This document shows, piece after piece, positions 17,229-41,886 of a stretch of DNA of 64,000 nucleotides (positions are counted from its first letter, which is position 1; each line of letters opens with the position of its first letter). Both the position numbers and the translations under genes were made by a program. The stretch is from NCBI GenBank assembly GCA_049970175.1, contig JBMFNL010000004.1, positions 1,822 through 65,821 on the forward strand, written 5' to 3'. The stretch is from Chloroflexia bacterium. GTDB taxonomy: Bacteria; Chloroflexota; Chloroflexia; DTKN01. The notes beneath the pieces were generated by a model that was not told where the DNA came from, did no database searches, and saw only the letters and a list, made by a program, of their open reading frames with translations.

Positions 17229-17452
17229 CTCGACCTCCCGGCCGATCCAAAACAATCACCGGCCGCGCAAAATGTGCGACGGCCGGTTACGCCACCCGCT
17301 CCACCCGGTCCAGGCGTCCACATGGCGGGCCGGGCTTCATTGCCTCCGTCTGATTCGATTATAAACTTGCCCTGGCTCCCCGTCAATAGGAAAAAAGTAC
17401 CATTTGCGGTAGTACCCTGCGGCCCCCGGAGGCCGGTGGAAAGGCCGGCGAT

Positions 17453-20821: not shown

Positions 20822-23311
20822 GTGGACGTCGAGGAGGTCCTGGAGGCGCTGCAGAACGATCCGGAGGTTGCCCCCCACATCACCGCCTGGCGGACCTGGG
20901 AGGCCCGGCCGGCCCGCTATGCTCCCACGCCGGAGTGGCTCGACCGGCGCCTGCGGGAGGCCCTGGCCGAACTGGGCATCGCCCACCTCTATACCCACCA
21001 GGTCGAGGCGCTGGAGGCGGCGGCACGGGGAGAGCACGTCGTCGTCGCCACCGGCACCGCCTCCGGGAAAAGCCTCTGCTACCACCTGCCCGTCCTCCAG
21101 GCCCTCCTGGAGCATCCCGGCGCCGCCGCCCTCTACCTCTACCCCACCAAGGCGCTGGCCCACGACCAGGAGGCCTTCCTGCGCACCCTGGCCGGGAGGA
21201 CGGCCCTTCCTCCCTTCGGCACCTACGACGGCGATACCCCGCCGGCCCTCCGTCCCCGCCTGCGCCGGGAGGCCCGCCTCCTCCTGACCAACCCGGACAT
21301 GCTCCACGCCGGCATCTTGCCGCGCCACCCCCACTGGGCCCCCTTCCTGGCCGCGCTGCGCTACGTCATCCTGGACGAACTGCACGTCTACCGCGGCCTC
21401 TTCGGGAGCCACGTGGCCAACGTGCTGCGCCGGCTGAAGCGAATCTGCGCCTTTTACGGAAGCCGACCCCGCTTCCTCGTCGCCTCGGCCACCATCGGCA
21501 ACCCGGGGGAACTGGCCGGCCGGCTTCTGGAGGAAGCCGTAACCGTGGTGGAGGACGACGGTGCCCCCCGCGGCCGGCAGCACTTTCTCCTCTACAATCC
21601 CCCGCTGGCCGATCCCGCCCTGGGAATCCGCCGTAGCCTTCTCCTGGAGGCGGAGAATCTGGCCGCCCGCTTCCTGGAGGCCGGCCTGCCCACGGTCGTC
21701 TTCGCCCGTACCCGGCTGGGGATGGAACTGCTCCTCACCGACCTGCGGGAGCGGTGCGGCGGCCGGCGCGGCCGGCTCCGGGGGTATCGCGGCGGCTACC
21801 GGGCGGAGGTGCGTCGGGAGATCGAATCCGGCCTGCGTCGGGGAACGGTGCAGGGGGTGGTGGCCACCAACGCCCTGGAACTGGGCGTGGACATCGGGAC
21901 GCTCTCGGCCTGCATCCTGGCCGGCTATCCGGGGACGATCGCGGCGACCCGGCAGCAGGCCGGCCGCGCCGGCCGCCGGGAGGCCCCCTCCGCGGCCATC
22001 CTCATCGCCGGCCCCGGCCCCCTGGACCAGTACCTGGTTACCCACCCTAACTACTTCTTCGGCCGCTCCCCCGAACAGGCCCACATCCACCCGGATAACC
22101 CCTTTCTCCTGACCGAACACCTGCGCTGTGCCCTCTTCGAACTCTCCTTCGCGGCCGATGAACCCTTCGGCACCGTCCGGCCGACCCCTTACCTGGAGGC
22201 CCTGGCCGCCGAGGGCTGGGCCCTCCCGGCCGGCGGGCGTTACTACTGGATCGGCGGCGCCCCTCCGGCCGAACGCCTCTCCCTGCGCACCACCTCCGCC
22301 GATGTGGTCACCATCGTGGATGACTCCGGGGAAAAGCCGGTTGTCCTGGGGCAACTGGACCGCCCCGGCGCCGCCATCCTGGTCTACCCGGGGGCCGTCT
22401 ACTTGCACGAGGGGTGTTTCTACCAGGTGGAGCGGCTGGACTGGGAGGGCGGCACGGCCTACGTCCGGCCGGCCCGGCCGGAGTACTACACGCAGGCCGG
22501 CCTGGAGGTGGATTGGGAAGTTGCCCTGGAGGCCGGGAACGCGCCCCAGGGCCTGGGGATGCGCCACCACGGCGTGGTCCATGTCCAGGCCCGGGCCGCC
22601 TCCTATCGCCGGGTCCGCCTCTATACCCACGAGACGTTGGGCCGTGGGAGGATCGACCTGCCGCCCCAGGAGTTCCTCACCCAGGCCTTCTGGCTGACCT
22701 TGCCGGCACCGGCCCACGAGATCGTCCGCCCCGACTACGGCCCCAACTGGCCGGAGATGCGTCGCCGCGCCCGGGAGCGCGACCGCTTCATCTGCCAGCA
22801 CTGCGGCGTACACGAGGCCCAGGTCGGCCGCGAGCACGATGTCCACCACCGCATCCCCTTCCGCCGATTCGGCTACCGCCCGGGCGAAAACGAGGCCTAC
22901 CTCCAGGCCAACGACCTCTCCAACCTGGTCACGCTGTGCCGTTCCTGCCACGCCCGGGTGGATCACGGCCCCCGGGAAAGCACTGTGGCCGCCCTGCAGG
23001 GGCTGGGCCACCTCCTGCGCCACGTGGCCCCGCTCTTCCTGATGTGCGACCCCGGCGACATCCAGGTGGGCACCCGCCTGCGTATGCCCCCGGAGGGCCT
23101 ACCCGTCCTCCTCATCTACGACAACTGCCCCGGCGGGGCCGGCCTTAGCCCCCACCTCTTTGAGGCCTGCTCCGAATGGCTGCAGGCCGGCCGCTCCCGT
23201 CTCCTGGAATGCCCCTGCCCGGACGGCTGCCCTTCCTGCATCGGCCCTCCGGAAGAAGGGGAGGAAGGGACCAAGGCACAGGTCGGCCGGCTGCTGGAAC
23301 TGCTGACCTGA
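20822..23311 (+). CDS. MrfA/YprA-like DEXH-box helicase with C-terminal DUF1998 zinc finger and an embedded HNH-like motif
   Basis: Helicase motifs GTASGKS, DELH, ASAT, QQAGRAGRR. HNH-like segment CQHCGVHE...HDVHHRIPF...NLVTLCRSCHARVDHG. DUF1998-like segment DNCPGGAG...LECPCPDGCPSCIG. Confidence 0.75.
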   Translation: MDVEEVLEALQNDPEVAPHITAWRTWEARPARYAPTPEWLDRRLREALAELGIAHLYTHQVEALEAAARGEHVVVATGTASGKSLCYHLPVLQALLEHPGAAALYLYPTKALAHDQEAFLRTLAGRTALPPFGTYDGDTPPALRPRLRREARLLLTNPDMLHAGILPRHPHWAPFLAALRYVILDELHVYRGLFGSHVANVLRRLKRICAFYGSRPRFLVASATIGNPGELAGRLLEEAVTVVEDDGAPRGRQHFLLYNPPLADPALGIRRSLLLEAENLAARFLEAGLPTVVFARTRLGMELLLTDLRERCGGRRGRLRGYRGGYRAEVRREIESGLRRGTVQGVVATNALELGVDIGTLSACILAGYPGTIAATRQQAGRAGRREAPSAAILIAGPGPLDQYLVTHPNYFFGRSPEQAHIHPDNPFLLTEHLRCALFELSFAADEPFGTVRPTPYLEALAAEGWALPAGGRYYWIGGAPPAERLSLRTTSADVVTIVDDSGEKPVVLGQLDRPGAAILVYPGAVYLHEGCFYQVERLDWEGGTAYVRPARPEYYTQAGLEVDWEVALEAGNAPQGLGMRHHGVVHVQARAASYRRVRLYTHETLGRGRIDLPPQEFLTQAFWLTLPAPAHEIVRPDYGPNWPEMRRRARERDRFICQHCGVHEAQVGREHDVHHRIPFRRFGYRPGENEAYLQANDLSNLVTLCRSCHARVDHGPRESTVAALQGLGHLLRHVAPLFLMCDPGDIQVGTRLRMPPEGLPVLLIYDNCPGGAGLSPHLFEACSEWLQAGRSRLLECPCPDGCPSCIGPPEEGEEGTKAQVGRLLELLT

Positions 23312-23350: not shown

Positions 23351-23379
23351 TTGACAGCCACCCTTTTCTCTGGCATAAT
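23351..23379 (+). promoter_or_regulatory. Near-consensus promoter TTGACA-17-(TGg)CATAAT
   Basis: Read directly. It is followed by RBS GAGGAGG and the ATG at 23414. Confidence 0.5.
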
Positions 23380-23413
23380 ACCCTCACAACTGCCGGGCCG
23401 GAGGAGGAATGCG

Positions 23414-23602
23414 ATGTCCGAAATCTTGAACTGGTGGACCTGTTCCGAATGCCGTTACACCCTTCAGGCCAAGGAGCCGCCCGAGGTCTGTCCCGCTTGC
23501 CACAAGAAGTGTCAGTTCATCGAGGCTACCTGCTATACCCCGGAGTGCGGGGGACCGGCCAACCCGGATCCGCAGATCATCGCCGGCAAGAAGGCCGACT
23601 GA
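23414..23602 (+). CDS. Small 4-Cys zinc-ribbon protein (62 aa)
   Basis: MSEILNWWTCSECRYT...CPACHKKCQF...CYTPEC. Own promoter and RBS. Confidence 0.6.
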   Translation: MSEILNWWTCSECRYTLQAKEPPEVCPACHKKCQFIEATCYTPECGGPANPDPQIIAGKKAD

Positions 23603-23822
23603 CGGGCTTCCCACGATGTGGGCGGAACTTTGCCGGCCCATGACCTGGCCGATCCGGGCTTTCTCCTGGCCCAGTGGAAGGCTGTCCTGACCACCGTGCT
23701 CTTGTTCCTGGCCCTCCTGCAGGCGCTGGAGCAGACCGTGTTGCGCGACAAGGTCCGTCTTCGGAGGCATGTTTGTAGTCGAGCGAGGCGCCGAGGAGGA
23801 AATGCCTGCGGCGCTTGAGGTC

Positions 23823-23885
23823 GGTGGCTTCGGGGTTTCGATACGCGGCTCCCTTCGGTCGCCGCTACTCAATCGCCGAAGCCGC
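23823..23885. repeat. Short dispersed intergenic element, copy B (ggtggcttcgg-GGTTTCGATACGCGgctcccttcggtcgccGCTACTCAAtcg-ccgaagccgcc); outer arms form an 8-9-bp inverted repeat
   Basis: Read directly. It sits 55 bp upstream of the SbcC-like start. Confidence 0.5.
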
Positions 23886-23939
23886 CCTGGAGATCGCCTT
23901 ACCTAAAGGACCAGGAGACCTTCCCAGGAGGTCGCCGCC

Positions 23940-26498
23940 GTGATACCGGTATCGCTCCACCTGCGTAACTTTATGTGTTACCGCGAAGGCCTCCCTCCCC
24001 TGGAATTTGACTTCCGCCTGGCCTGCCTTTCCGGGCCGAACGGGGCCGGAAAATCGGCCCTCCTGGACGCCATCACCTGGGCGCTCTGGGGACAGGCCCG
24101 CGCCCGCTCCGACGATGCCCTCATCGCTCAGGGAGCCCAGGAAATGGAGGTCGAGTTCGAGTTCCTTCTGGAGGGCAACCACTACCGCGTCTACCGCCGG
24201 CGGGAAAGCGGCGGCCCCCGGGGGGCGGGCAAAACCCGTCTGGAACTCCAGGTCTACAGCCCGCTGGGCTGGAAAACGATGTCCGGAGAGAGCGTTCGCC
24301 AGACGGAGCAGCGCATCGTCGAACTCCTGCGGATGGATTACACCACCTTCATCAACTCCTCCTTCCTCCTGCAGGGCCGGGCCGACGAGTTCACCCTCAA
24401 GCCGCCGGCCGAACGCAAGCGCATCCTGGCCGATATCCTGGGCCTGGGCTACTACGATGTCCTGGAGCAGCGGGCCCGGGAGAGGCTGCGCGATGAGGAG
24501 AAGAACTTCCAGGCCCTCTCCCTGAGTATCGCCGAATTGGAGCGAGAACTGGCCCGTCGGGAAGAACTGGAAGAGGCGCTGGCCCGGGCCGAGGAGGAGG
24601 TAGCCCGGGATGAAGCGCTCCTTTCCCTCCGGCAGAAGGAACTGGCCGAGATCCAGGCCCGGCTGACTTCCCTGGAGGCCGACGCCCGGCAGGCGGAGGA
24701 AGTGCGCCGGAGACTTGCGCGCCTGGAGGAGGAAGGCGCCCGCCTGGAAGAGCGGATGGCCCAGACGGAAAGTCGTCTTCAGGAGGATCGGGCCCTCCTG
24801 GCACGGGAGGCCGAGATCGAAGCCGGCTTCCGCCGCCTCCAGGAGTTACGGGAGCGCAACGAGGCCCTTTCCCAGGCGGCCGGCCGGATTCTATCCCTCT
24901 CCGAGCGCCAGCACGCCCTGGAACAGGCCATCGAGCGGGCCAGGACAGACCTGGTCATGGAACGGGAAGTATTGCGCCGATCCCTCCAGGAGATGGACGA
25001 GCGTCTGGAGGAGCGGCCGGCCATCGAGAGCCGCCTGGAGGAAATCGCCCGGAAACTGGCCGCCCTCCGGGAAAAGGAGGCCCAGCGCAACGCCCTGCTC
25101 GAAGAGGCCCAGGAGCAGGTCGCCGCCATCCGTGCCCTCAAGGCCGATTGCCAGCGCCTGCGGGAGGAGATGGAGGCCCTGCGGCAGAAACTGGACATGC
25201 TGGGGGAGGAAGTCACCCATTGCCCCCTCTGCCAGAACCTCCTCAGCCCGGAATCGTATGCCCACATCCGCTCCTCCTACCAGGCCGAGGGAGAACAGAA
25301 GCGGGACCAGTACCGGCAAAAAGAAACCGAGATTCGCCGCCGGGAGGAAGCCCTGGCCGAACTTCGGGGACGACAGGAAACGTTGGAGCAGGAACTCAGG
25401 CAGGTGCGCCTCTTCGAGGGACAGCAGGCGGCCCTGGAGAAAAGCCGGATGGAACTGGCCCGACTGGCCGAGGAACGGCCGGCCCGGGAAAGCCGCCTGC
25501 GGGAACTCGAACGCGCTCTGGAGGAGGCCGCCTATGCCTCGGAGGAGCGGGCCGCCCTCCTTTCCCTGCAGCGGGAAATCGCCTCCCTGGATTATCGTCG
25601 CGAGGAGCACCAGGCCGTCCAGCAGGAACTGGCCCGGCTGAAGGCCGTCGAGGAAGAATACCACCGGTTGCAGGGCGTCCGCGAGCGCCTGTCCGAAGGC
25701 GAACGCCAGCAGGAGGAGTTGCGGGCCGCCCGAAAGCGCTGCCAGGAGGAACTGGCCCTGGAGGGGGAGCGCCTCTCCGCCCTGGAAGACCGATTGGCCG
25801 AACTGGAGGCCCTCCGCGCCCGCCGGGAGGAGGCCGAAACCGCCCTGCGCGAGGCCCAGGAGGCGCTGGGGCGGGCCCGGCAGGCCCAGGGGAGCGCCCG
25901 CGGGGCCTTGGAGCGCCTCCAGGAGGTCCAGGAGCGCCATCGGGAAAGGAAGCGGGCCTGCGAGGAGACGCTGGAGCGCCGGGGCATCTATGAGGAACTG
26001 ACCTTGGCCCTGGGGAAGCGGGGGGTCCAGGCCATGCTCATCGAAACGGCCGTCCCCGAGATCGAGCGCGAGGCCAACGAACTGCTGGCCCGCATGACCG
26101 ATGGGGAGATGGCCGTGCAACTGGCCATGCAGCGGGAGACGAAGCAGGGCACGGTGGTCGAGACGCTGGACATCAACGTTTCCGATTCGCGGGGCACCCG
26201 CCCCTACGAGAACTTTTCGGGCGGGGAAAAGTTGCGCATTAATCTCGCCCTGCGCATCGCCCTGAGCCGGCTCCTCTCCCGCCGCGCCGGCGCCAGCCTC
26301 CAGACCCTGGTCATCGACGAGGGTTTCGGCACCCAGGATGCCGAAGGCCGGCTGCGCCTGGTGGAGGCCATCCAGTCGGTGGAGAAGGAATTTGAAAGGA
26401 TTCTGGTGATTACCCATCTCCAGGAACTCAAAGACCTTTTTCCGGTGCGCATCGAGATCGCAAAGACGCCCGAAGGAAGCCGATGGACGGTGGTGTAG
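23940..26498 (+). CDS. SbcC/Rad50-like SMC-family ATPase (GTG start)
   Basis: Walker A SGPNGAGKSALLDAI. ~500-aa coiled coil with a CPLC zinc hook (...VTHCPLCQNL...). C-terminal ABC signature and Walker B FSGGEKLRINLALRIALS...LVIDEGFG. RBS CCAGGAGG. Confidence 0.8.
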   Translation: MIPVSLHLRNFMCYREGLPPLEFDFRLACLSGPNGAGKSALLDAITWALWGQARARSDDALIAQGAQEMEVEFEFLLEGNHYRVYRRRESGGPRGAGKTRLELQVYSPLGWKTMSGESVRQTEQRIVELLRMDYTTFINSSFLLQGRADEFTLKPPAERKRILADILGLGYYDVLEQRARERLRDEEKNFQALSLSIAELERELARREELEEALARAEEEVARDEALLSLRQKELAEIQARLTSLEADARQAEEVRRRLARLEEEGARLEERMAQTESRLQEDRALLAREAEIEAGFRRLQELRERNEALSQAAGRILSLSERQHALEQAIERARTDLVMEREVLRRSLQEMDERLEERPAIESRLEEIARKLAALREKEAQRNALLEEAQEQVAAIRALKADCQRLREEMEALRQKLDMLGEEVTHCPLCQNLLSPESYAHIRSSYQAEGEQKRDQYRQKETEIRRREEALAELRGRQETLEQELRQVRLFEGQQAALEKSRMELARLAEERPARESRLRELERALEEAAYASEERAALLSLQREIASLDYRREEHQAVQQELARLKAVEEEYHRLQGVRERLSEGERQQEELRAARKRCQEELALEGERLSALEDRLAELEALRARREEAETALREAQEALGRARQAQGSARGALERLQEVQERHRERKRACEETLERRGIYEELTLALGKRGVQAMLIETAVPEIEREANELLARMTDGEMAVQLAMQRETKQGTVVETLDINVSDSRGTRPYENFSGGEKLRINLALRIALSRLLSRRAGASLQTLVIDEGFGTQDAEGRLRLVEAIQSVEKEFERILVITHLQELKDLFPVRIEIAKTPEGSRWTVV

Positions 26499-27319
26499 GC
26501 GAAATCCCCCGAATCGCCGTGGAACTCTACGGGACCATCCCCGAAGGGACGGTCCGCTCCATCCGGCAGGAGGTCGAGGCTTGCTACCGCGCCCTCACCG
26601 TCCCGCTGCCGGAGGTGGTGAGCCTCTGCCTCTTCGATACCCTGGCCCGTTGGCGGGAATATGCGGCCCGCCGGCGGGAGGAGGCCGGGGTCATTACCGC
26701 CGGCGAAGAGGGCTTCCTGACGACGCACGAAGCCTGGGAAGGCGTGCCCCGGCTGAGCGTCTGCCTGGAACGGTTGGAGGCCCAGCCCCCGCTCGTCCAG
26801 CAGGGGGCGCTGCACCAGGTGGTGGCCCACAGCGTCCTGCACGGCCGGCCCGATTTCTACCGCTTCGCCATCCCCCGCTCGCTCATCGCCGAAAGCCGGG
26901 CGCGAGGGGTAGAATTGGAAATCTTCCAGCAGATCCTCTATTTTGTGGCCATCGCCATCAAAGGCTACCAGGCCGTCTCCCTCCTGGTGGAACACCGCTT
27001 CATCCAGGACCAGGTGGCCCTGGCCCTCCATCAATTGGAGGCCGGGGAAGACGACGTGGCACTCTGGAAGATGGCCCGCTGGGAGCCCCGGGCCCGCCTC
27101 CTCTACCTTTCGGCCCAGTTGAAGCCGCTCCTCTACCTCCGGCCGCTCCTGCCCTATGCCCCGGAACTGGCCGAAGCCGGCCGGGCCATGCTCTCCCACC
27201 TCCCGCCCGAGGAGATCGAGCGCCTGGAGGGCCTGGTGGAGGAACTGGTCGCCCAGCACAGCGGCGATACCCACCGCGACGTCAGCGCCGGCCTGGCCCT
27301 GGTGCTGAGCCGGCTGTAG
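26483..27319 (+). CDS. Hypothetical protein (278 aa), translationally coupled to the SbcC-like gene
   Basis: ATG lies inside the last codons of the upstream gene (...cgATGGacggtggtgTAG). I recognise no domain and see no SbcD-type DxH/GNHD phosphoesterase motifs. Confidence 0.5.
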   Translation: MDGGVGEIPRIAVELYGTIPEGTVRSIRQEVEACYRALTVPLPEVVSLCLFDTLARWREYAARRREEAGVITAGEEGFLTTHEAWEGVPRLSVCLERLEAQPPLVQQGALHQVVAHSVLHGRPDFYRFAIPRSLIAESRARGVELEIFQQILYFVAIAIKGYQAVSLLVEHRFIQDQVALALHQLEAGEDDVALWKMARWEPRARLLYLSAQLKPLLYLRPLLPYAPELAEAGRAMLSHLPPEEIERLEGLVEELVAQHSGDTHRDVSAGLALVLSRL

Positions 27320-27441
27320 GAAATTGGGGGTGGAAACCGGCTTCGGCCGGCCTTCCCCAAGCCGGAGGTTATGGAAGACCGGTCCCGATGAGAACCGACG
27401 ACCTTTAGGTAAGTGTTGAAACCCTTGGTGGAGGTGCAGAA

Positions 27442-28872
27442 ATGGATACAACGCCCACGAACGAACGGAAATCGTTATCGCTGCGCGAAGCCGTCGCCCA
27501 GGTCCTGGCCCAGCTGGACGGTCCTATCGCGCTGGAGGAGTTTGACCAACGGGTGCTGGCCGTTCGCCCTTCCTCGGCCAAGAACCCCCGCGCCTCGCTG
27601 CACACTCACCTGCGCTGGGAAGAAATCGGCAAGACCCTGGTCTTTCTGGACGACCGGACGATCTTGCCCCTGCGCATCGCCATGCGCGGGGTCCGCTTCC
27701 GCATCCCGCTGGCCCGTCAGGAGGTCGAGTCCGGTATCCTGCCGATCGAGCCGGCTTTCGACTATTTCTTATGCCCGAGCCTCTCCAAAGAGGCGGTGCA
27801 GTTGCTCGACAGGGAAGGCCGGCCGCTGCCGGCCGAGTTCGTGACCATCCGGAGCACGGTCCGCGCCCCAATCTTCGGGGAGCATATCTATGGAATGCCC
27901 GCCTTCAACCTGGATACATGGTTCCGCTCCTGCCAGGTTCGCCGGGGCGACAGCCTTCTGGTCACCATCGAAGACTGGGAGGCCGGCCGCTTCCGCCTGG
28001 AACACGAGCCGGCCGGCCGTCGCCGGAAGGCCGAGATCGCCCGAAAGAACCGGGAACTGGCCGATATCCTCTTTGATATGCTGGAGTCGGCCCGGGATGA
28101 GTGCCTCTTTGCCTATATGGCCATCCCCACGGCCTACGCCCGCCTGACCGACCCACGGGGCTACCCCGGCGACCACTGGTTCGATGTCCTGAAGAGCGAC
28201 CCCCGCATGGCGTACAATGGGTGGATAATCACCTACAGCGACTACCAGACGCCGCTGGAAGAGGCGATCTTCGGGCAAAGAAACCTGCCCGAGGAGGTGT
28301 TCACCCCGGCCCAGGGTCGCCGGGTCTATCGCTTCAAGGCGGCCCTGTGGCATCGGCCGTCTCTGTGGCGAACCATCGAGATTCAGGGGAGACAGACCCT
28401 GGCCGACTTGGACCGCATCCTGCGCGAAGCCTTTCACCACGACTGCTTCGACCACATGGGCGGATTCTGGAAGCGGATCCAACGCGGCCAGGGGCGCAGA
28501 TTCCGGGAGGTGGACCTGGGCAGCATCGAGCCATTTGGCGGCGGCGATGGGGCCGACCGGCACATCGCCACCCTGGGGCTGGAGGTGGGCGGCGAACTCA
28601 AGTACGTATACGATTTTGGCGACTGGATCGAACACCGCCTGACGCTGGAACAGATCGCCGAACCGGAGAGCGGAGCCCAATACCCGCGCATCGTCGGCCG
28701 GAACCCGCCTCGCTACCAGAACTGTCAGTCGTGCGCGGCGCGCGGCCGTAAAGTGCGGGCGAGTTGGATCTGCCTCGAGTGCTCGGACAAGCAGCAGCGC
28801 GACATACTGGTCTGTGAAAAGTGCCTGGAGGAGGAACACCAGGACCATTACGCCGAGCAAATCTTCTATTGA
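27442..28872 (+). CDS. Hypothetical protein (476 aa) with C-terminal pRiA4b ORF-3-like module and terminal Cys-rich finger
   Basis: LWRTIEIQGRQTLADLDRILREAFHHDCFDHMGGFW and KYVYDFGDWIEHRLTLEQI match, from memory, the PF07929-type signature (IWRR...LH...HLH.F...YxYDFGDxWxH). C-terminal CQSC-x10-CLEC-x10-CEKC..H..H. Confidence 0.55.
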   Translation: MDTTPTNERKSLSLREAVAQVLAQLDGPIALEEFDQRVLAVRPSSAKNPRASLHTHLRWEEIGKTLVFLDDRTILPLRIAMRGVRFRIPLARQEVESGILPIEPAFDYFLCPSLSKEAVQLLDREGRPLPAEFVTIRSTVRAPIFGEHIYGMPAFNLDTWFRSCQVRRGDSLLVTIEDWEAGRFRLEHEPAGRRRKAEIARKNRELADILFDMLESARDECLFAYMAIPTAYARLTDPRGYPGDHWFDVLKSDPRMAYNGWIITYSDYQTPLEEAIFGQRNLPEEVFTPAQGRRVYRFKAALWHRPSLWRTIEIQGRQTLADLDRILREAFHHDCFDHMGGFWKRIQRGQGRRFREVDLGSIEPFGGGDGADRHIATLGLEVGGELKYVYDFGDWIEHRLTLEQIAEPESGAQYPRIVGRNPPRYQNCQSCAARGRKVRASWICLECSDKQQRDILVCEKCLEEEHQDHYAEQIFY

Positions 28873-28990
28873 GCGCCGCCGGGTCTGACATCCGCTCATA
28901 CATCCCACCTAGGCCCTTACGGCGGCCCCCGACCGGCCGCGACGGGCCCAAAATCGCCTCCGCGACGGCCGTCCCCCACCATCTCAACAG

Positions 28991-29034
28991 CGTTTCGGGC
29001 CGCCAGGTTTCGATACGCGCTACGCGCTACTCAA
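28991..29034. repeat. Short dispersed intergenic element, copy C (cgtttcgggccgccaGGTTTCGATACGCGctacgcGCTACTCAA)
   Basis: Read directly. It sits 120 bp downstream of the 476-aa gene stop. Confidence 0.5.
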
Positions 29035-29083
29035 CCTACATTCGTGCCAGAACGAGTTATGTGTGGATGTCAGGCCGGGTAGG

Positions 29084-29112
29084 TTGACTGCGCAGAGGTT
29101 TCGGGATATACT
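29084..29112 (+). promoter_or_regulatory. Promoter TTGACT-17-TATACT upstream of mltG
   Basis: Read directly. Confidence 0.45.
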
Positions 29113-29140
29113 ACGGCCCGGAAATTGTACCTGGGTCTCG

Positions 29141-30244
29141 ATGGAGGAAACGGTGCGCGAATTCCTGCGCTTTCTCTTCTTTCTTCTGCTGATCGCCTCC
29201 CTGATCGTGGTGGGGGTCCTCTTCTACGCCATCCGCTTTCTGCGCACCTCGGCCCCGGCCCTGCCCTCTTCGGCGAACGTGGTTCGGTCGGGAGAGGTGG
29301 TCTTTGTGATCGAGCCCGGCGAGACCACGGCCGGCATCGCCCACCGCCTGGCCGAGCAAAACCTCATCCGGGCCATCTGGCCCATCCCGGCGGACTGGCT
29401 CTTCCGCACCTGGGCCTGGGTGCGGGGGATGGACGGGCGACTGGAGGCCGGCCGGCATGTCCTGCGCTACGGCATGACCCTGGACGAAATTCTGGAGGCG
29501 CTGGCCGTTTCCCCCACGGTGGAGGAAATCACCTTCACCATCCGCGAGGGGCTACGCCTGGAGGAGGTGGCCGAGGTCCTGGAGGCCCAGGACGTGATGT
29601 CGGCCGAGGAATTCCTGGAGGCCGTGAAACAACCCTACGATTACGATTTCCTGGCCGACCGCCCGGAGGGCGCTTCCCTGGAGGGCTATATCTTCCCCGA
29701 TACCTACACCGTCCCCCGGACCTACACCCCCACCCAGGTCGTGGACTTTATCCTGCAGAACTTTGACCGGCAATTCGACGCCGAGATGCGCCAGGAGGTC
29801 CAGGTCCAGGGGCGGACCGTCTACGAAGTGGTCACCCTGGCCTCGATTGTGGAGCGGGAGGCCGTGGTGGATGCCGAGCGTCCCATCATCGCCGGCGTCT
29901 TCCTCAACCGGCTGAAGGCCGGCTGGCCGCTTGCCGCCGACCCGACGGTGCAGTATGCCCTGGGCTATAACGCCCGGCAGGGAACGTGGTGGCCGGTGCT
30001 CTACTTCGACGAACTGGGCATCGAAAGCCTGGACGAGATCGACAGCCCCTACAATACCTACCGTTACGCCGGACTTCCCCCCGGGCCGATCTGTAACCCC
30101 GGCCTGGCCTCCCTTCGGGCGGCACTACAGCCGGCCCAGACCGATTACTACTTCTTCGTGGCCAAAAACGACGGCTCCGGCGAGCACGCCTTCGCCCGAA
30201 CGGCGGAGGAACACGCCGCCAACGTGGCCCGCTATCAACGGTAG
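29141..30244 (+). CDS. mltG: Endolytic murein transglycosylase MltG (YceG family)
   Basis: N-terminal TM helix FLRFLFFLLLIASLIVVGVLFYAI. YceG-like body with the conserved PYNTY motif near the C-terminus. Confidence 0.8.
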   Translation: MEETVREFLRFLFFLLLIASLIVVGVLFYAIRFLRTSAPALPSSANVVRSGEVVFVIEPGETTAGIAHRLAEQNLIRAIWPIPADWLFRTWAWVRGMDGRLEAGRHVLRYGMTLDEILEALAVSPTVEEITFTIREGLRLEEVAEVLEAQDVMSAEEFLEAVKQPYDYDFLADRPEGASLEGYIFPDTYTVPRTYTPTQVVDFILQNFDRQFDAEMRQEVQVQGRTVYEVVTLASIVEREAVVDAERPIIAGVFLNRLKAGWPLAADPTVQYALGYNARQGTWWPVLYFDELGIESLDEIDSPYNTYRYAGLPPGPICNPGLASLRAALQPAQTDYYFFVAKNDGSGEHAFARTAEEHAANVARYQR

Positions 30245-30316
30245 GACCGTTCACACGTACCGAAGCCCGTCCAAACACCCCGCAGGAGCGGGGTATCCTG
30301 AGGGAGAAGCAGCCGA

Positions 30317-31078
30317 ATGACCATCGGGTTTCGACAGGCTCAACCCATCGCACTGGCCGCCTTCCTGGGCCTTTTCCTGGGAACGCTTCTGGGCGTGCTC
30401 ATCCAGCGCCTGCCCCGGGAGGACCACCTCCGTCTTTTCCGCCGGCCGCGCTGCACCCGCTGCGGGCAACCGCTGGGCTGGGAACTTGTGCCGCTCCTGG
30501 GCTACCTCCTCCAACGGGGGCGCTGTCGGCACTGCGGAAAGCCGATCCCGGTTTTCTTCCCCCTGGTCGAACTCCTGACCGGGACCGTCTTCGCCCTCCT
30601 GGTCTGGCGGCACGGCCCGAGCGGCACGGCCGGCCTCTACGCCGTCTTCAGCCTGGCCCTCATCTTGACCCTCTTCCTGGACTGGCTGCACCGGGACATC
30701 TATTACCTGATCATCATCCCCCCCGCCGCGCTGGCCTTGCTTTCCCCGCTCTGGGGAAACAACCTGCGAGCGGAACTTCAGAGCCGGCTGGCCGGCCTGG
30801 GGGTCGGCCTGATCTTCTTCGGCCTGCTCTTTCTCCTGGGGCAGGTGCTCTTCCGCAGCCAGGCCCTGGGCCTGGGGGACGTCTGGCTGGCCGGGAGCAT
30901 CGGGGCGATGGCCGGCTTCTACGGAGCGCTATGGGCCCTTTCCCTGGGCATCGTCCTGGCCGCCGTCGCCGCCGGGCTGCTCCTGCTCCTCCGGCGGCAT
31001 TCGGCCGGCGACTATATGCCCTACGGCGCCTATCTCTGTCTGGCCGCCCTGGGCTATTTCTGCTTCGGCCCTATTTGA
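30317..31078 (+). CDS. pilD: Type IV prepilin peptidase (A24 family)
   Basis: Zn-finger CxxC...CxxC (CTRCGQP...CRHCGKP) preceding the polytopic peptidase body. Confidence 0.8.
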   Translation: MTIGFRQAQPIALAAFLGLFLGTLLGVLIQRLPREDHLRLFRRPRCTRCGQPLGWELVPLLGYLLQRGRCRHCGKPIPVFFPLVELLTGTVFALLVWRHGPSGTAGLYAVFSLALILTLFLDWLHRDIYYLIIIPPAALALLSPLWGNNLRAELQSRLAGLGVGLIFFGLLFLLGQVLFRSQALGLGDVWLAGSIGAMAGFYGALWALSLGIVLAAVAAGLLLLLRRHSAGDYMPYGAYLCLAALGYFCFGPI

Positions 31079-31096
31079 CACGGTTGGAGAACTCCG

Positions 31097-31777
31097 GTGG
31101 AAGTCTGCCTGCTGGCCTATACGCCCGAACCGCTGCGGCTCCTCTACACCGCCGCCCGCACCTGCTACAGCGCGGCGAGGCCGATGGAGTTGTGGGGAGA
31201 GCCGGCCGCGCCGGAGCGGATGAAGCGCCTGATTCGCCAGGTGGTGGAAAGCGGACACCACTCCATCCTGGAACACGTCTCCTTCACCTTTGCCGTAGCC
31301 GGTATCTCCCGAACGGCCAGCCATCAACTCGTCCGCCATCGCCTGGCCTCCTACAGCCAGCAGTCCCAGCGCTATGTCCGGGGGCCGTTCCCCTATGTGA
31401 CGCCGGCCTCCTGGGAACGGGCCGGGGCAGAGTGGCTCCGGCGCTACCAGGAGGCGATGGCCGGCCTGGAGCGCCTCTACCAGGAAGCGGTGGCGGCGGG
31501 CATCCCCCCGGAGGATGCCCGCTTCGTCCTGCCCCAGGCGGTGACCACCCACCTGACCATGACCATGAACCTGCGCGAACTCATCCACGTCGTCGGGCTG
31601 CGCACCTGCCTCCGGGCCCAGTGGGAGATACGCGAACTCTTCACCCGGGTGGCCGAACTCGTGCGCGCCGTCGAGCCCTTCCTGGGCTCTTTCCTGGTGA
31701 CCAAGTGCGAGCGGCTGGGCTACTGCGATGAACGGGAAACGTGCGGGCGCTACCCGTTGCGCTCCGAACGCGGCTGA
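31097..31777 (+). CDS. thyX: Flavin-dependent thymidylate synthase ThyX
   Basis: ThyX signature RHRxxSxxxxSQRY (QLVRHRLASYSQQSQRY). Confidence 0.85.
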   Translation: MEVCLLAYTPEPLRLLYTAARTCYSAARPMELWGEPAAPERMKRLIRQVVESGHHSILEHVSFTFAVAGISRTASHQLVRHRLASYSQQSQRYVRGPFPYVTPASWERAGAEWLRRYQEAMAGLERLYQEAVAAGIPPEDARFVLPQAVTTHLTMTMNLRELIHVVGLRTCLRAQWEIRELFTRVAELVRAVEPFLGSFLVTKCERLGYCDERETCGRYPLRSERG

Positions 31778-31794
31778 AGGATAAAGGTGACCCG

Positions 31795-32427
31795 ATGAGC
31801 GAGGCGTTTCTTCAGAAGACGGTGGAAGAGTTTCTGAACGAACTGGCCAGCAAGGCCCCGGTGCCGGGCGGGGGAAGCGTCTCCGCCCTGAGCGGGGCGC
31901 TGGCGGCCGGGCTGGTGACGATGGTCTGCGACCTGACCATCGGCAAGAAGCAGTACGCCGAGGTGGAGGAGGAAATCCGCCGCTACCGGGAGGAGGCGGA
32001 GAACCTGAGGCTGCGCCTGCAAGGTCTCATCCAGGCCGACGTGGAGGCCTACGGCCGGCTGGCGGCGGCCTATAAACTCCCCCGGGAGACGGAGGAAGAG
32101 CAGGCCGATCGCTACGCCGCCGTCCAGGAAGCCACCATGGAGGCCACCCGGGTGCCTCTGGAAATCGCCGAGGCGGCCCGGCGGGTGGTGGAACTTTCCG
32201 GCCCGGTGGCCGAGAAGGGCTCGCGCCTGGCGGTGAGCGATGCCGGCATCGCCGCCCTCCTGGGCGAGGCCGCCGTCCACAGCGCCCTGCTGAACGTCAA
32301 GATCAACCTGCCCACCATCGAGGACGAGCCGTTTGTGGCCGAGGCCCGCCGTCGGATGAAAAAGGTCCTCGCCGGCCTGGCCGAGCGCCGGGAGGCCATC
32401 CTCCGGACGGTCGAGGAAAGATTGTAG
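31795..32427 (+). CDS. Cyclodeaminase/cyclohydrolase-family protein (FtcD C-terminal-like)
   Basis: PGGGSVSALSGALAAGLVTMV motif and all-helical body. Confidence 0.65.
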   Translation: MSEAFLQKTVEEFLNELASKAPVPGGGSVSALSGALAAGLVTMVCDLTIGKKQYAEVEEEIRRYREEAENLRLRLQGLIQADVEAYGRLAAAYKLPRETEEEQADRYAAVQEATMEATRVPLEIAEAARRVVELSGPVAEKGSRLAVSDAGIAALLGEAAVHSALLNVKINLPTIEDEPFVAEARRRMKKVLAGLAERREAILRTVEERL

Positions 32428-32486
32428 GTCGGATGGGCAATCCGACCTACGGCCGACCACAGGGCAGGTCAGATCGACCATCCGAC

Positions 32487-33395
32487 TTACTCCCACAACT
32501 GCTGGAACAGGTGCCACTGCTCCGGGTGGGCGCGGATGCACGGCTCCATGGCCCGGGCGATGCGCTGGACGTTTTCGCGGACGCAGGCTTCGCGCTCGCC
32601 TTCCCGCAGGAGTTCGATGGGCAGCATGTTGACCCGGTATTCCCCCTTTTCCCGGCGGCAGTAGGCCAGGAAGAGGCTGGCGCCGGTATGCAGGGCCAAC
32701 CGGACGTGGCCGTCGGGAAGGAGGGTCGGCCGGCCGAAGAACTCGACCACGGTGCCCTGGCCTTTGATCGGCCGATCGGCCCCGGTCACCACGATTCCCC
32801 CCTCTTCCAGCACGCGGAAGGCGGCGCGTAGGGCCTTGGGCCCCACCGGCATGATGCGCGTCTGCTGAAACTCGCGCAACCGGTTCAGGAAGAGGAAGCC
32901 GCGTTCCTGCTCCGGCAGGACGAGCACGAGCATCGGATAGCCCCGGGCGGTGATGGCCTGGCCGGCCAGGTCGAAACTGCTCAGGTGCGGCGCGATCAGG
33001 ATGACCCCTTTCCCCGAACGGTGGGCCTCGACGAAGCGCGACCAGCCGGGCTCATCCCAGTGCACCATGGCGGCGATTTTGGCCGGCGGAAGGGAGGGCA
33101 GGTAGAACATTTCATAGTACTGCCGGGCGGCATGGACAAAGATGCGCAGCGCCACCCAGCGCCGGCGGCAAAGGCTTTCCCCCAGCACCGGCCGCAGGTT
33201 GCTTTCCAGGATGCCCCGGGTATGCGGGGCAAAAAGCCCCCACAGCCAGGCAATCGTCTGCACCAGTGGGTAACCTATGGCGCGGGGGAGGATGCGGGCC
33301 AGGAAAAGCCCCACCCGCATCAGCCGTTCGCTCAGGGGCCGGGCCTGCCGGAACCACCGCTGGCGGAAGGACGGGAGGCCGGTTGGCATACGCAC
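32487..33395 (-). CDS. Lysophospholipid/lipid A-type acyltransferase (LpxL/HtrB-like LPLAT)
   Basis: LPLAT fold features: N-terminal TM region; catalytic-region motif ILIAPHLSSFD (acyltransferase HX4D-like); VTGADRP. Confidence 0.6.
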   Translation of the reverse strand: MRMPTGLPSFRQRWFRQARPLSERLMRVGLFLARILPRAIGYPLVQTIAWLWGLFAPHTRGILESNLRPVLGESLCRRRWVALRIFVHAARQYYEMFYLPSLPPAKIAAMVHWDEPGWSRFVEAHRSGKGVILIAPHLSSFDLAGQAITARGYPMLVLVLPEQERGFLFLNRLREFQQTRIMPVGPKALRAAFRVLEEGGIVVTGADRPIKGQGTVVEFFGRPTLLPDGHVRLALHTGASLFLAYCRREKGEYRVNMLPIELLREGEREACVRENVQRIARAMEPCIRAHPEQWHLFQQLWE

Positions 33396-33416
33396 ACTCC
33401 TGATTCTATCCGCATC

Positions 33417-37387: not shown

Positions 37388-38647
37388 CTACGGCCAACGG
37401 CTGTACTGGGCCACGTAGGCTTTGACCGCATGATAGGCCGGCCGGGGGTTGCCGGCCGGGTCAATGAGGCCAAAGGCCGACTTCTGATCGTCGGGCGGGT
37501 TGGTGCGGGCAAAGTTCAGGTTCCAGATGAACATGGCCCCCATCCAGGGCTGGTAGGTGGTGCGGCCCATCTCCAGCGCCCGCACCAAATAGTCCGCCTG
37601 GTCCTGGGCCGTGTTATAGGCGGCGTACTCGTAGCCGGGAGCGGCCACTTCGGTGATGCCTTCGATGGAGGCCCAGCCGAACTCGGTGATCCAGATCTGT
37701 TTTTCGCCGTCGCCGTACGTTTCCATCACCTTGCGGATGTTCTCGACATGGCGGAAATAATGGGTCGGGTGGTCCACCCAACCCGGACCGGGGCCGGGGC
37801 GATCGGGCCAGAGCGTATCCGGAGGATTGAGCGTGCCGGCCACATGCACGGCCAGGACGTCGAAATAGTTCCGTACGACACCATCCTGGTACCGGTACAC
37901 CGCCTCCAGGTAGGCGATGTCATCAAGGGCGATGGCGGGGTCGTTCACCCCGGTGGGCGTCAGGGGGCCGAAGAGGACGATGGCCAGCGGATCGGCCTCC
38001 TTGATGCGGGTATAGGCCACCTTCAGGAGTTCCACATAGCGGCCCGGCCCCTGGACGTAGCCGGCGTTTTCCACAGCATAGTTCTGCTCGTTCCAGATCT
38101 CATAGGCCTGGATACGCCCCCGGTAACGGGTGGCCATCGCGTAGAGGAAATCGCCCAGGTCGTTGGGATCGGTCGGCATCCCGGGGCCGCCGTCCTCTGT
38201 AGCCCAGCCCGGGGCGCGGACGATGCTCACCAAGAGTTTCCGTTGGTGTTGCCCCACGGCCTCCACCACGTTGTCCAGTTCATCCCAGATGTAGTAGCCC
38301 TTGGAGCCCTCGATATACTCCCACCAAACCTGCTGGCGCACCCATTCGATGCCCAGGTCGTCCACATAGCCCAGGACCTCGTCATAGTCCTTGTAGAACA
38401 GGTCCACGTCAATGCCGAAGGAAAAATAGGGCGTATGCATCGGGAAGGTGGGGTCCGGCGTTGGGCTGGGGGTCAGCGTGGGGCCGGGCGTTCGGGTGGG
38501 CTTGGGCGTGTTCGTCGGCACCGGCGTCTCCACGGCCACCGAAACCGGGGGGAGGGAAGGCATCGTGGTCGTCGGCCCGCAGGCGGCCAGGAGGGAGGCG
38601 AGCACGGCGAGGGCGATGAGGAAACGGAAGGGCTTAGAGCAGGTCAT
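37388..38647 (-). CDS. Secreted lipoprotein glycoside hydrolase, clan GH-A (GH5-like), paralog 1
   Basis: Lipobox LLAACG. PT-rich linker. YEIWNEQNY (NEP-type acid/base) and IWITEFGW (nucleophile) motifs. Confidence 0.65.
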   Translation of the reverse strand: MTCSKPFRFLIALAVLASLLAACGPTTTMPSLPPVSVAVETPVPTNTPKPTRTPGPTLTPSPTPDPTFPMHTPYFSFGIDVDLFYKDYDEVLGYVDDLGIEWVRQQVWWEYIEGSKGYYIWDELDNVVEAVGQHQRKLLVSIVRAPGWATEDGGPGMPTDPNDLGDFLYAMATRYRGRIQAYEIWNEQNYAVENAGYVQGPGRYVELLKVAYTRIKEADPLAIVLFGPLTPTGVNDPAIALDDIAYLEAVYRYQDGVVRNYFDVLAVHVAGTLNPPDTLWPDRPGPGPGWVDHPTHYFRHVENIRKVMETYGDGEKQIWITEFGWASIEGITEVAAPGYEYAAYNTAQDQADYLVRALEMGRTTYQPWMGAMFIWNLNFARTNPPDDQKSAFGLIDPAGNPRPAYHAVKAYVAQYSRWP

Positions 38648-38685
38648 CGCGGTCTCCTTTCGTGTTGCGTGTTGCGTGTTGCGTG

Positions 38686-39960: not shown

Positions 39961-40027
39961 TCGGTTCTCCTTTTTTTGTAAAATCAAGGGCCGGCCGATT
40001 CCGGCTCGGCGGGAGCGGCATAGGCGC

Positions 40028-41758: not shown

Positions 41759-41825
41759 CCAGTCCACCTCCTTCTTTGCCGGTATGTCGCGGGGTATTAT
41801 ACCATCACCCTCCGACCCAGGCAAA

Positions 41826-41854
41826 TTGACGTCGGCCTTCCTCGGCCCTATAAT
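41826..41854 (+). promoter_or_regulatory. Consensus-like promoter TTGACG-17-TATAAT
   Basis: Read directly. Followed by GGAGGG RBS and GTG at 41887. Confidence 0.5.
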
Positions 41855-41886
41855 GGGATACACAGGTTCGGATCGGAGGGCTCGCG

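What the first reader, a model, noticed from the sequence alone, without database searches (positions are those of the whole stretch)
23351..29034. Orphan SbcC/Rad50-like ATPase operon with a zinc-ribbon gene and two unknown partner proteins, bracketed by a dispersed repeat
The 852-aa protein (23940-26498) has every SbcC/Rad50 hallmark: Walker A, a long coiled coil with a CPLC zinc hook, the ABC signature and Walker B. There is no SbcD/Mre11 phosphoesterase gene on either side. The cassette instead starts with a 62-aa four-Cys zinc-ribbon protein behind a near-consensus TTGACA-17-TGgCATAAT promoter. It continues with a 278-aa protein whose ATG is embedded in the SbcC-like stop region (translational coupling) and in which I see no known motif. 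It ends with a 476-aa protein whose C-terminal ~120 aa carry the pRiA4b-ORF3-like signature (IWRR...HLH.F...YVYDFGDWIEH) plus a terminal CxxC-x10-CxxC-x10-CxxC finger. Copies of the GGTTTCGATACGCG...GCTACTCAA element sit 55 bp upstream and 120 bp downstream of the coding block. The next gene (mltG) has its own promoter. An SMC-type ATPase with unknown effectors rather than its canonical nuclease is the architecture of several phage-defence systems (Lamassu, Wadjet and similar). This particular gene combination is not one I recognise.
Basis: partly seen in the sequence, partly recalled or inferred. Interest (0 to 1): 0.78.

Follow-up and report, generated by a model that had tools for sequence, protein, structure and literature searches.

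The report
SbcC-type ATPase coupled to eroded zincin-fold protein
The conserved unit here is two genes, not four: a DNA-repair-type SbcC/Rad50 ATPase whose gene overlaps that of an uncharacterised protein with a metalloprotease-like fold that has lost its catalytic residues, while the other flagged genes and the repeats are chance neighbours.

Summary
This includes the 852-aa SbcC/Rad50-like ATPase with all its motifs and a CPLC hook, the overlapping 278-aa gene, the 476-aa PRiA4_ORF3 protein, the zinc-ribbon gene behind a strong promoter, and two repeat copies.

Comparative data break the "cassette" apart. Only SbcC-like plus the 278-aa gene travel together: 16 of 16 loci in one Chloroflexota clade, with a 16-nt overlap in 10 of 15 relatives, despite at least 5 upstream and 5 downstream contexts. 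The 476-aa gene is a phylum-wide, unlinked, DNA-binding-type protein, and a close relative lacks it at this site. The zinc-ribbon gene and the repeats were found only in this species.

The 278-aa protein is not SbcD. A confident model has a zincin-like fold. Its unnamed family is mostly archaeal, stands alone there, and carries HExxH. The SbcC-linked clade has lost His, Glu and Asp of that set.

The ATPase groups at 41-46% identity with a Chloroflexota-wide set of ~850-aa SbcC-like proteins that are also never next to sbcD. The surroundings are housekeeping genes, and there is no PADLOC hit for the partners.

My reading is a repair-type ATPase with a new, probably non-proteolytic accessory subunit. 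The mechanism is inferred.

The parts
23940..26498 (+). SbcC/Rad50-type ABC ATPase, 852 aa. It has a complete head, two coiled-coil arms of about 230 aa each, and a CPLC zinc hook at residues 428-431. This is core gene 1 of the conserved pair.
   Evidence: Searches give the ORF, Pfam/NCBIfam hits and motif positions. The closest solved relatives are Rad50 heads from M. jannaschii and T. maritima and E. coli SbcC. A clade at 55-87% identity is followed by a gap to the ~850-aa Chloroflexota-wide homologues at 41-46%.
26483..27319 (+). 278-aa zincin-fold protein of an unnamed family. The canonical HExxH...D/E set is eroded: Q112, V113, G161, Q163. H82, H116, H120, Y126, K160 and K214 are retained. 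This is core gene 2 of the pair.
26483..26498 (+). 16-nt overlap between the 278-aa start (ATG behind GAAGGAAG) and the end of the SbcC-like ORF (TAG). This is a probable translational-coupling junction.
   Evidence: Sequence. The same 16-nt overlap occurs in 10 of 15 related loci, down to 58-60% protein identity. The other five have gaps of 2-100 nt.
23351..23379 (+). Sigma-70-like promoter, TTGACA-17-CATAAT with TG, in front of the zinc-ribbon gene. It may also drive the SbcC-like gene in this genome. No promoter-like site was found directly upstream of the SbcC-like gene.
   Evidence: Relatives instead carry their own TGnTAnAAT-like sequences directly upstream of SbcC-like.
23414..23602 (+). 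62-aa rubredoxin-like 4-Cys zinc-ribbon protein. It is a neighbour in this species only and is not part of the conserved unit.
   Evidence: RUBY_RBDX 1.6e-6. No homologue lies beside the pair in any of the 15 related pair loci (L001-L003, L087-L097, L101). It is present only in the same-species contigs L105 and L106.
27442..28872 (+). 476-aa multi-domain protein, probably DNA-binding: winged helix, B3-like barrel, MM3350/PRiA4_ORF3 (SNAPC3-like), and a C-terminal 3x CxxC finger. It is conserved across the phylum and is not linked to the pair.
23834..23872 (+). Repeat copy 1, GGTTTCGATACGCG-15 nt-CGCTACTCAA. It is embedded in a longer hairpin spanning 23820-23887.
   Evidence: MFE -36.1 kcal/mol, z = -2.05. 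No Rfam match.
29006..29034 (+). Repeat copy 2, GGTTTCGATACGCG-5 nt-CGCTACTCAA. It lies between the 476-aa gene and the mltG promoter, inside the segment that L090 lacks.
   Evidence: It shows no notable fold (z = -0.15). The only Rfam matches in its region were two elsewhere in the intergenic stretch, far below their gathering scores.

Best explanation
The real feature is a lineage-specific two-gene module in one clade of Chloroflexota. It is an SbcC/Rad50-type ATPase, related at 41-46% identity to the ~850-aa SbcC-like protein found across the phylum. Its gene is translationally coupled to that of a 278-aa zincin-fold protein.

**Shown.**
- The pair is always adjacent, and usually overlaps by 16 nt, while both flanks vary.
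- The ATPase has every catalytic motif and a zinc hook.
- The partner is not SbcD/Mre11. It belongs to an unnamed family that is chiefly archaeal, stands alone there, and carries HExxH.
- The SbcC-linked clade has replaced the first His and the Glu of HExxH, and a conserved Asp. It keeps H82, H116, H120, Y126 and K160.

**Inferred.**
- The ATPase dimerises through the hook and engages DNA ends or secondary structures in an ATP-dependent way, as Rad50/SbcC does.
- The 278-aa protein is made in step with it and docks on it as an accessory subunit.
- Having lost the canonical peptidase residues, the partner most likely acts as a non-proteolytic adaptor or regulator. A less likely alternative is a hydrolase with a remodelled His-rich metal site.
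- The catalytic nuclease, if one exists, is encoded elsewhere.

The zinc-ribbon gene, the 476-aa DNA-binding-type protein and the short repeats are incidental neighbours in this species.
For: **Co-localisation.**
- The window, L001-L003 and 12 metagenome loci whose 278-homologue is at least 60% identical all have SbcC-like immediately upstream.
- The 16-nt overlap is kept in 10 of 15 relatives.
- There are at least 5 upstream and 5 downstream contexts.

**Partner identity.**
- The model is confident.

**Family and erosion.**
- 241 cluster representatives, none of those tested with a Pfam hit.
- The 80 best genome hits are all archaeal, and none has SbcC-like within 7 kb.
- The residue tables show HE/D/E in all 76 archaeal proteins and QV(or QI)/G in all 52 proteins of the window's sequence cluster. 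That cluster includes all 16 proteins shown to be SbcC-linked.

**Housekeeping nature.**
- The pair is syntenic with mltG in the window and L090, and lies near rpL9-dnaB in L001 and L003.
- Distant homologues sit near recN-like and HhH-GPD genes and never beside a Metallophos gene.
- The partners have no PADLOC hit.

**Unlinked neighbours.**
Against: - No physical interaction was tested. Adjacency within a clade of 58-100% identity could partly reflect common descent.
- The nearest relatives of the 278-aa clade (40-48% identity, motif HVAAAH) are not next to SbcC-like. The link is therefore young and narrow.
- Invariant H82, H116, H120, Y126 and K160 show that some site is still under selection, so "non-catalytic" is not established.
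- I could not determine whether these genomes encode SbcD/Mre11 or a second SbcC elsewhere.
- I could not determine whether the ATPase clade is an orthologue or a paralogue of the phylum-wide protein.
Confidence: 0.55

Rival explanations
1. The 278-aa protein is the catalytic partner that replaces SbcD. It would be a YbeY-like, metal-dependent nuclease or hydrolase using the retained His cluster (H82, H111, H116, H120), giving a Rad50-family machine with a non-Mre11 nuclease.
For: - The motif AH-S-x-L-H-G is invariant across the family and resembles YbeY's AHMVVHG / HGSLHL.
- No SbcD lies near any of 21 SbcC-like loci: the 16 loci with the pair and 5 distant homologues.
- The invariant His, Tyr and Lys residues are retained after HE was lost.
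Against: - The profile alignment to YbeY is not significant (probability 7.6%).
- YbeY's third ligand position is Tyr here.
- The residues lost (H112, E113, D161) are exactly those expected to build a zincin active site. They are invariant or nearly so in the archaeal majority.
- No nuclease family matches by sequence.
Confidence: 0.15
2. The locus is an anti-phage or anti-plasmid system of the SMC-ATPase-plus-effector type (Lamassu-like or Wadjet-like).
For: - It has an SMC-family ATPase with a non-canonical partner.
- There are weak PADLOC hits to LmuB models (best 3.6e-25).
- The flanks around the pair vary.
- A helicase-HNH gene lies upstream in this genome.
Against: - The LmuB hits cover only generic head and coiled-coil regions. 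They are far weaker than the SbcC/Rad50 hits (5.8e-75).
- There is no LmuA, LmuC or JetABD hit, and no PADLOC hit for the 278-aa or 476-aa proteins.
- The neighbours are housekeeping genes, not a defence island.
- Across 15 relatives the ATPase and its partner keep similar levels of identity to the window's proteins (56-85% and 60-89%), which fits joint, vertical-looking inheritance.
- The partner's catalytic set is eroded, which is unlike an effector.
Confidence: 0.08
3. Two unrelated housekeeping genes became adjacent and overlapping once in an ancestor and have simply stayed so. There is no functional or physical link.
For: - The association is confined to one clade.
- The family is standalone in archaea and in the sister bacterial clade.
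- Overlapping genes are hard to separate once formed.
Against: - The pair survived repeated rearrangement on both sides.
- Adjacency persists in the 5 loci where the overlap was lost.
- The loss of the catalytic residues coincides with the clade in which the link exists. However, the unlinked sister clade also lost them.
Confidence: 0.2

Closest known systems
SbcCD / Mre11-Rad50 (E. coli SbcCD, PDB 6S6V; archaeal and Thermotoga Rad50-Mre11)
   Same: The ATPase has the Rad50/SbcC head motifs, antiparallel coiled coil and CxxC zinc hook. Its best sequence matches are SbcC/Rad50 models and Rad50 head structures.
   Different: No Mre11/SbcD phosphoesterase gene is adjacent in this or any related locus. 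The co-translated partner has a zincin-like fold. The protein scores below the NCBIfam SbcC and Rad50 cut-offs. At 852 aa its arms are shorter than those of E. coli SbcC (1048 aa).
Lamassu (LmuB SMC-like ATPase with LmuA effector, with or without LmuC)
   Same: It pairs an SMC-family ATPase with a non-nuclease-family partner, and there are weak LmuB profile hits.
   Different: There is no LmuA or LmuC homologue. In the Lamassu systems I recall, the effector gene comes first, whereas here the ATPase does (recalled, not tested). The context is housekeeping. The ATPase groups with a phylum-wide SbcC-like set. The partner lacks an intact catalytic site.
Zincin-fold hydrolases (YbeY endoribonuclease, PDB 1XM5; M48 BepA; M9 collagenase; Chloroflexus putative hydrolase 3CMN)
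   Different: No sequence-level match to any Pfam or NCBIfam zincin family was found. A helical C-terminal domain of about 150 aa is added. In the window's clade the first His and the catalytic Glu are replaced by Gln and Val, and D161 by Gly.
MM3350 / PRiA4_ORF3 proteins and SNAPc subunit 3 (for the 476-aa neighbour)
   Different: This is a much larger architecture, with an N-terminal winged helix, a B3-like barrel and a C-terminal 3x CxxC finger. It is a conserved single gene across Chloroflexota and is not a plasmid or IS passenger.

Membership tests
SbcCD / Mre11-Rad50 complex | Rad50/SbcC ABC-ATPase head (Walker A, Q-loop, signature, Walker B, H-loop) | tested here: met
   The motifs are at residues 32, ~145, 759, 790 and 824. 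Pfam finds AAA_23 and SbcC_Walker_B.
SbcCD / Mre11-Rad50 complex | Long coiled coil with a central CxxC zinc hook | tested here: met
   There is a single CPLC at 428-431, flanked by E/R/L/A/Q/K-rich arms at about 190-425 and 450-690. The Rad50_zn_hook hit is weak (0.002).
SbcCD / Mre11-Rad50 complex | Cognate Mre11/SbcD calcineurin-like phosphoesterase, normally encoded beside the ATPase | tested here: not met
   No gene annotated Metallophos was seen in the flanks that could be annotated or compared around the window, nor in the Pfam-annotated loci of two relatives and five distant homologues. For the 12 metagenome loci only the gene directly downstream was checked, and it is the 278 homologue. 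The 278-aa partner has a zincin fold. Whether sbcD lies elsewhere in the genome could not be tested.
SbcCD / Mre11-Rad50 complex | Score above the curated family cut-off (NCBIfam TIGR00618 sbcc; Rad50 equivalogs) | tested here: not met
   TIGR00618 scores 253 bits against a cut-off of 478.5. The Rad50 models score 106-173 bits against cut-offs of 700-1087.
Lamassu | LmuB-type SMC ATPase | tested here: inconclusive
   The best PADLOC LmuB hit is 3.6e-25, is partial (residues 21-281), and is much weaker than the SbcC/Rad50 hits.
Lamassu | LmuA effector (and LmuC in three-gene forms) encoded alongside | tested here: not met
   None of the 62-aa, 278-aa or 476-aa proteins has a PADLOC hit.
Wadjet | JetA, JetB and JetD partners of a JetC ATPase | tested here: not met
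   There is only a marginal JetC Walker-A hit (1.5e-5), and no JetA, JetB or JetD hit.
Zincin (gluzincin-type) metallopeptidases | Zincin alpha/beta fold with an active-site helix | tested here: met
Zincin (gluzincin-type) metallopeptidases | HExxH motif (two His ligands plus the catalytic Glu) and a downstream acidic ligand | tested here: not met
   The window protein reads L-H-Q-V-V-A-H, with Q112, V113, G161 and Q163. All 76 archaeal homologues tabulated have H112-E113, and nearly all family members that keep HE also keep D161 and E163.
YbeY (UPF0054) metallo-endoribonucleases | H-x3-H-x5-H zinc motif and family-level sequence similarity | tested here: not met
   The spacing here is H116-x3-H120-x5-Y126. 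hhalign probability is 7.6%. Only the fold is similar.
PRiA4_ORF3 / MM3350 (476-aa neighbour) | Pfam PF07929 above the gathering score, and the MM3350 fold | tested here: met

The most novel reading that the evidence does not exclude
In this Chloroflexota clade, a Rad50/SbcC-type ATPase has acquired a dedicated subunit that is not Mre11/SbcD. The subunit is a zincin-fold protein recruited from an otherwise standalone, mainly archaeal family and then stripped of its peptidase residues. Together with the phylum-wide absence of an adjacent sbcD, this would define a new composition of the Rad50-family DNA-end-processing machine. The partner would act either as a pseudo-protease adaptor or as a novel metal-dependent nuclease.
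Probability: 0.3. Interest if true: 0.7.

Novelty: new variant of a known kind. Interest (0 to 1): 0.45.

Why it matters
[quoted passage not shown] Here a bona fide SbcC-type ATPase is coupled to an uncharacterised zincin-fold protein. In all 21 Chloroflexota loci examined it is never encoded beside SbcD.

If the two proteins form a complex, Rad50-family ATPases could be re-equipped with other subunits outside defence systems. It would also give a first functional handle on an unnamed protein family of about 240 sequence clusters that is widespread in Bathyarchaeia.

The work also removes a false lead. The apparent four-gene "defence cassette bracketed by repeats" is an accident of gene order in one species.

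Tried and rejected
- **Is the 278-aa protein a divergent SbcD/Mre11?** Rejected. It has no Metallophos hit, and its confident model matches zincins, not calcineurin-like folds.
- **Is the four-gene cassette conserved?** Rejected by the neighbourhoods.
- **Does PADLOC recognise a defence system?** Only generic ATPase and helicase hits appeared.
- **Is the archaeal 278 family linked to Rad50?** No. None of 80 loci has an SbcC/Rad50-like gene within 7 kb, and no neighbour is conserved.
- **Are the repeats a known RNA?** No match reached a family's gathering score. The only hits were two chance-level ones in the 28870-29150 region. Only copy 1 folds notably.
- **Are the repeats a boundary element?** They are absent from all 104 related loci held at the time of the search.
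- **Sequence link to YbeY.** hhalign was not significant. I first verified my recalled YbeY sequence as identical to 1xm5_A.
- **Clade-specific SbcC residues as a docking-site hint.** They are scattered, with only a mild cluster at residues 301-350 of the coiled coil. I did not rely on this.
- **Technical failures.**
  - Alignment A2 was too diverse for the search for related loci.
  - The afdb50 library was unavailable.
  - A neighbour-joining tree timed out and was replaced by average-linkage clustering.
- **Literature.** Two searches found nothing on an SbcC-zincin pairing or on SbcCD in Chloroflexota.


Full report
**1. Observation**

The region contains, on the + strand:
- a DEAD/HNH/MZB (MrfA-like) helicase at 20822-23311;
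- a 62-aa four-Cys protein at 23414-23602;
- an 852-aa ORF at 23940-26498;
- a 278-aa ORF at 26483-27319;
- a 476-aa ORF at 27442-28872;
- mltG/YceG.

The 852-aa protein carries the full Rad50/SbcC motif set. Walker A (GPNGAGKS) is at residue 32, the Q-loop near 145, a single central CPLC at 428-431, the signature FSGGE at 759, Walker B (LVIDE) at 790 and the H-loop ITH at 824. Two coiled-coil-like arms flank the hook. Its hits are:
- Pfam AAA_23 and SbcC_Walker_B;
- NCBIfam sbcc TIGR00618 at 253 bits, below the cut-off of 478.5;
- Rad50 head structures and E. coli SbcC among solved structures.

The remaining features check out as follows.
- The promoter-like site at 23351-23379 matches 11 of 12 positions and has a TG. 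mltG has its own site at 29084-29112.
- The 278-aa ATG lies 16 nt inside the SbcC-like ORF, behind GAAGGAAG.
- The 476-aa protein matches PRiA4_ORF3 and ends in three CxxC pairs.
- The repeat TTCGATAC...GCTACTCAA occurs twice on the + strand. None of 100 shuffles reached two copies. A partial copy lies at 9184.

One correction is needed. Repeat copy 1 lies between the zinc-ribbon gene and the SbcC-like gene, so the repeats bracket SbcC-278-476 and not the cassette as drawn from 23351.

**2. Which genes belong together**

*The 278-aa protein.* A word-index search found only 40 homologous clusters, all from Chloroflexota-type MAGs. The window itself matches a "Chloroflexia bacterium" MAG.
- In two genomes with 70% and 61% identical homologues, an 853-aa SbcC-like gene lies directly upstream. 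Neither a 476-aa-type gene nor a zinc-ribbon gene is nearby, and the flanks differ.
- A metagenome scan added 18 loci.
- In every locus where the homologue is at least 64% identical (12 loci), SbcC-like is immediately upstream. In the six loci at 40-48% identity it is not.
- Counting the window and L001-L003, that makes 16 of 16.
- The 16-nt overlap is retained in 10 of 15 relatives, down to 58-60% identity. The other five have gaps of 2-100 nt.
- The pair sits in at least 5 different upstream and 5 different downstream contexts.

*The 476-aa protein.* It has more than 650 homologues at 55-73% identity over its full length. They lie in unrelated neighbourhoods. In genome GCA_964592645.1 the 476-aa orthologue and the SbcC-278 pair are on different contigs.

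*Closest comparisons.* In L090 (83% nucleotide identity) the pair is followed directly by the mltG block, which corresponds to window 29154-34973. The 476-aa gene and repeat copy 2 are therefore an indel relative to that relative. Only contigs of the same species (99.8-99.9% identity) share the full arrangement.

*The repeat.* It is absent from all 104 loci held at the time of the search and matches no Rfam family at a meaningful score. Only copy 1 lies in a notable hairpin (z = -2.05, against -0.15 for copy 2).

The conserved unit is therefore two genes.

**3. What the 278-aa protein is**

It has no Pfam, NCBIfam or PADLOC hit. The same is true of ten distant relatives tested against Pfam, apart from one insignificant TetR_C_29 match (E 0.043).

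An AlphaFold2 model built on 22 homologues is confident (pLDDT 90.9, pTM 0.89). It shows an N-terminal alpha/beta domain and a C-terminal helical domain of about 150 aa.

An exhaustive profile search found 241 cluster representatives, all about 250-295 aa. A scan of 185,579 species genomes with the HE-containing subset found 202 relatives. The best 80 are all archaeal: mostly Bathyarchaeia, with some Hadarchaeota, Brockarchaeota and Nitrososphaeria. None has an SbcC/Rad50-like gene within 7 kb, and their neighbours are not conserved.

The family consensus is R-H112-E113-x-x-H116-S-x-L-H120-G. It also has H82, Y126, K160-D161-x-E163 and K214.
- All 76 archaeal proteins tabulated keep H112-E113.
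- All 52 proteins in the window's sequence cluster have Q-V (or Q-I) at 112-113, and in the tabulated patterns G or S at 161. That cluster includes all 16 proteins shown to be SbcC-linked. E163 is variable. H82, H116, H120, Y126 and K160 stay invariant.
- The nearest, unlinked bacterial clade (motif HVAAAH) has also lost these residues.

The canonical zincin catalytic set is therefore eroded in the window's protein, while another conserved site persists. A sequence-profile alignment to E. coli YbeY is not significant. I first verified that my recalled YbeY sequence is identical to 1xm5_A.

**4. What the ATPase is**

Its homologues fall into two groups:
- a clade at 55-87% identity, of about the same size as the 278-linked clade;
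- after a gap, hundreds of ~850-aa proteins at 41-46% identity over the full length, from Anaerolineae, Dehalococcoidia and other Chloroflexota. Their sources call them SbcC or SMC family ATPase.

I inspected five loci of the second group. None has a Metallophos/SbcD gene. Four have a convergent HhH-GPD glycosylase gene and two have a recN-like gene nearby.

"Orphan" SbcC-like is thus the rule in this phylum, and its surroundings are DNA-repair or housekeeping genes. In the window the neighbours are MurJ, MltG, ThyX and similar. A crude metallophosphoesterase regex finds nothing in the 64 kb. PADLOC gives only generic LmuB, PbeC and PtuA head similarities. These are far below the SbcC/Rad50 scores, and there is nothing for the partners.

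**5. The 476-aa neighbour**

**6. Mechanism**

*Shown.*
- An intact SbcC-type ATPase gene.
- A conserved, usually overlapping downstream gene for a zincin-fold protein lacking the canonical catalytic residues.
- Persistence of the pair through repeated flank rearrangements.
- No adjacent SbcD.
- Housekeeping context.

*Inferred.* The ATPase acts like Rad50/SbcC: it dimerises through the hook and clamps DNA ends or structures when ATP is bound. The 278-aa protein is co-translated and binds it as an accessory subunit. It most likely serves as a non-proteolytic adaptor or regulator.

*Rivals.*
- The partner is a remodelled metal-dependent nuclease that substitutes for SbcD (0.15).
- Inherited adjacency with no interaction (0.2).
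- A defence system (0.08).

*What I could not test.* Whether SbcD or a second SbcC exists elsewhere in these genomes, whether the two proteins bind each other, and the genome-wide copy number of the repeat.

**7. Verdict**

Its interpretation is right in part. The partner of the ATPase is unknown and is not SbcD.

The finding is a new variant of a known kind: a Rad50/SbcC-family ATPase with a previously undescribed partner family. It is narrow in distribution and has no functional evidence, so its interest is moderate.

Noticed in passing
window 17272-17356 (- strand): A c-di-GMP-II-GAG riboswitch aptamer (Rfam RF03169, 53.5 bits against a gathering score of 40). It lies directly upstream of a 1622-aa minus-strand ORF at 12390-17255.
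   Followed up: no
window 20822-23311 (+): An MrfA-type DEAD/DEAH helicase with a C-terminal MZB zinc domain. An HNH endonuclease domain is inserted at residues 658-712. In another assembly of the same species (L105) it is called as two ORFs of 429 and 335 aa. It is not found next to SbcC-like in any other genome examined.
   Followed up: partly
loci L007-L086 (archaeal genomes): The 278-aa family, with an intact HExxHxxxH motif, is a widespread standalone gene in Bathyarchaeia, Hadarchaeota, Brockarchaeota and Nitrososphaeria. It has no Pfam family and no conserved neighbour. An MFS-like gene is present in 15 of 80 loci and a CTP-synthase-like gene in 8 of 80.
   Followed up: partly
loci L108-L112: The Chloroflexota-wide ~851-aa SbcC-like gene lies convergent with an HhH-GPD DNA glycosylase gene in 4 of 5 loci. 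It lies downstream of a recN-like SMC_N gene in 2 of 5. It is never beside a Metallophos/SbcD gene. The Walker A of this group typically reads G-D-N-G-H-G-K-S, against G-P-N-G-A-G-K-S in the window's clade.
   Followed up: partly
loci L098, L099, L102-L104: The sister clade of the 278-aa family (motif HVAAAH, 40-48% identity) has its own conserved neighbours. A protein of about 150-200 aa lies upstream, ending in ...LLEILT.AQ.LKHEVD.... In L098, L099 and L103 a membrane protein of about 370 aa lies downstream. There is no SbcC-like gene.
   Followed up: no
window 37433-40975 (- strand ORFs 37391-42436): Three tandem paralogous segments of about 1.3 kb, spaced 1298 and 1324 nt apart and 70-87% identical. 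They indicate a triplicated gene.
   Followed up: no
window 5476-5775 and 12396-12695: A 300-nt direct repeat at 91% identity, 6.9 kb apart. It lies inside two large minus-strand ORFs of 1199 and 1622 aa.
   Followed up: no
window 23618-23818 (+): A 66-aa ORF with a hydrophobic stretch, in the 338-nt gap between the zinc-ribbon and SbcC-like genes. It is called as a gene in the NCBI assembly of the same species (L105) and has no Pfam hit.
   Followed up: no
window 24840-24990 (SbcC-like residues 301-350): A coiled-coil stretch that is unusually conserved within the 278-linked clade. It has 15 conserved positions, 7 of them clade-specific, against about 6 conserved positions in neighbouring 50-residue bins. 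It could be a docking surface.
   Followed up: partly
L003 11479-13302; L108 2765-4804: Intein_splicing domains occur in DnaB (L003) and in a sugar epimerase/dehydratase (L108) of related Chloroflexota.
   Followed up: no
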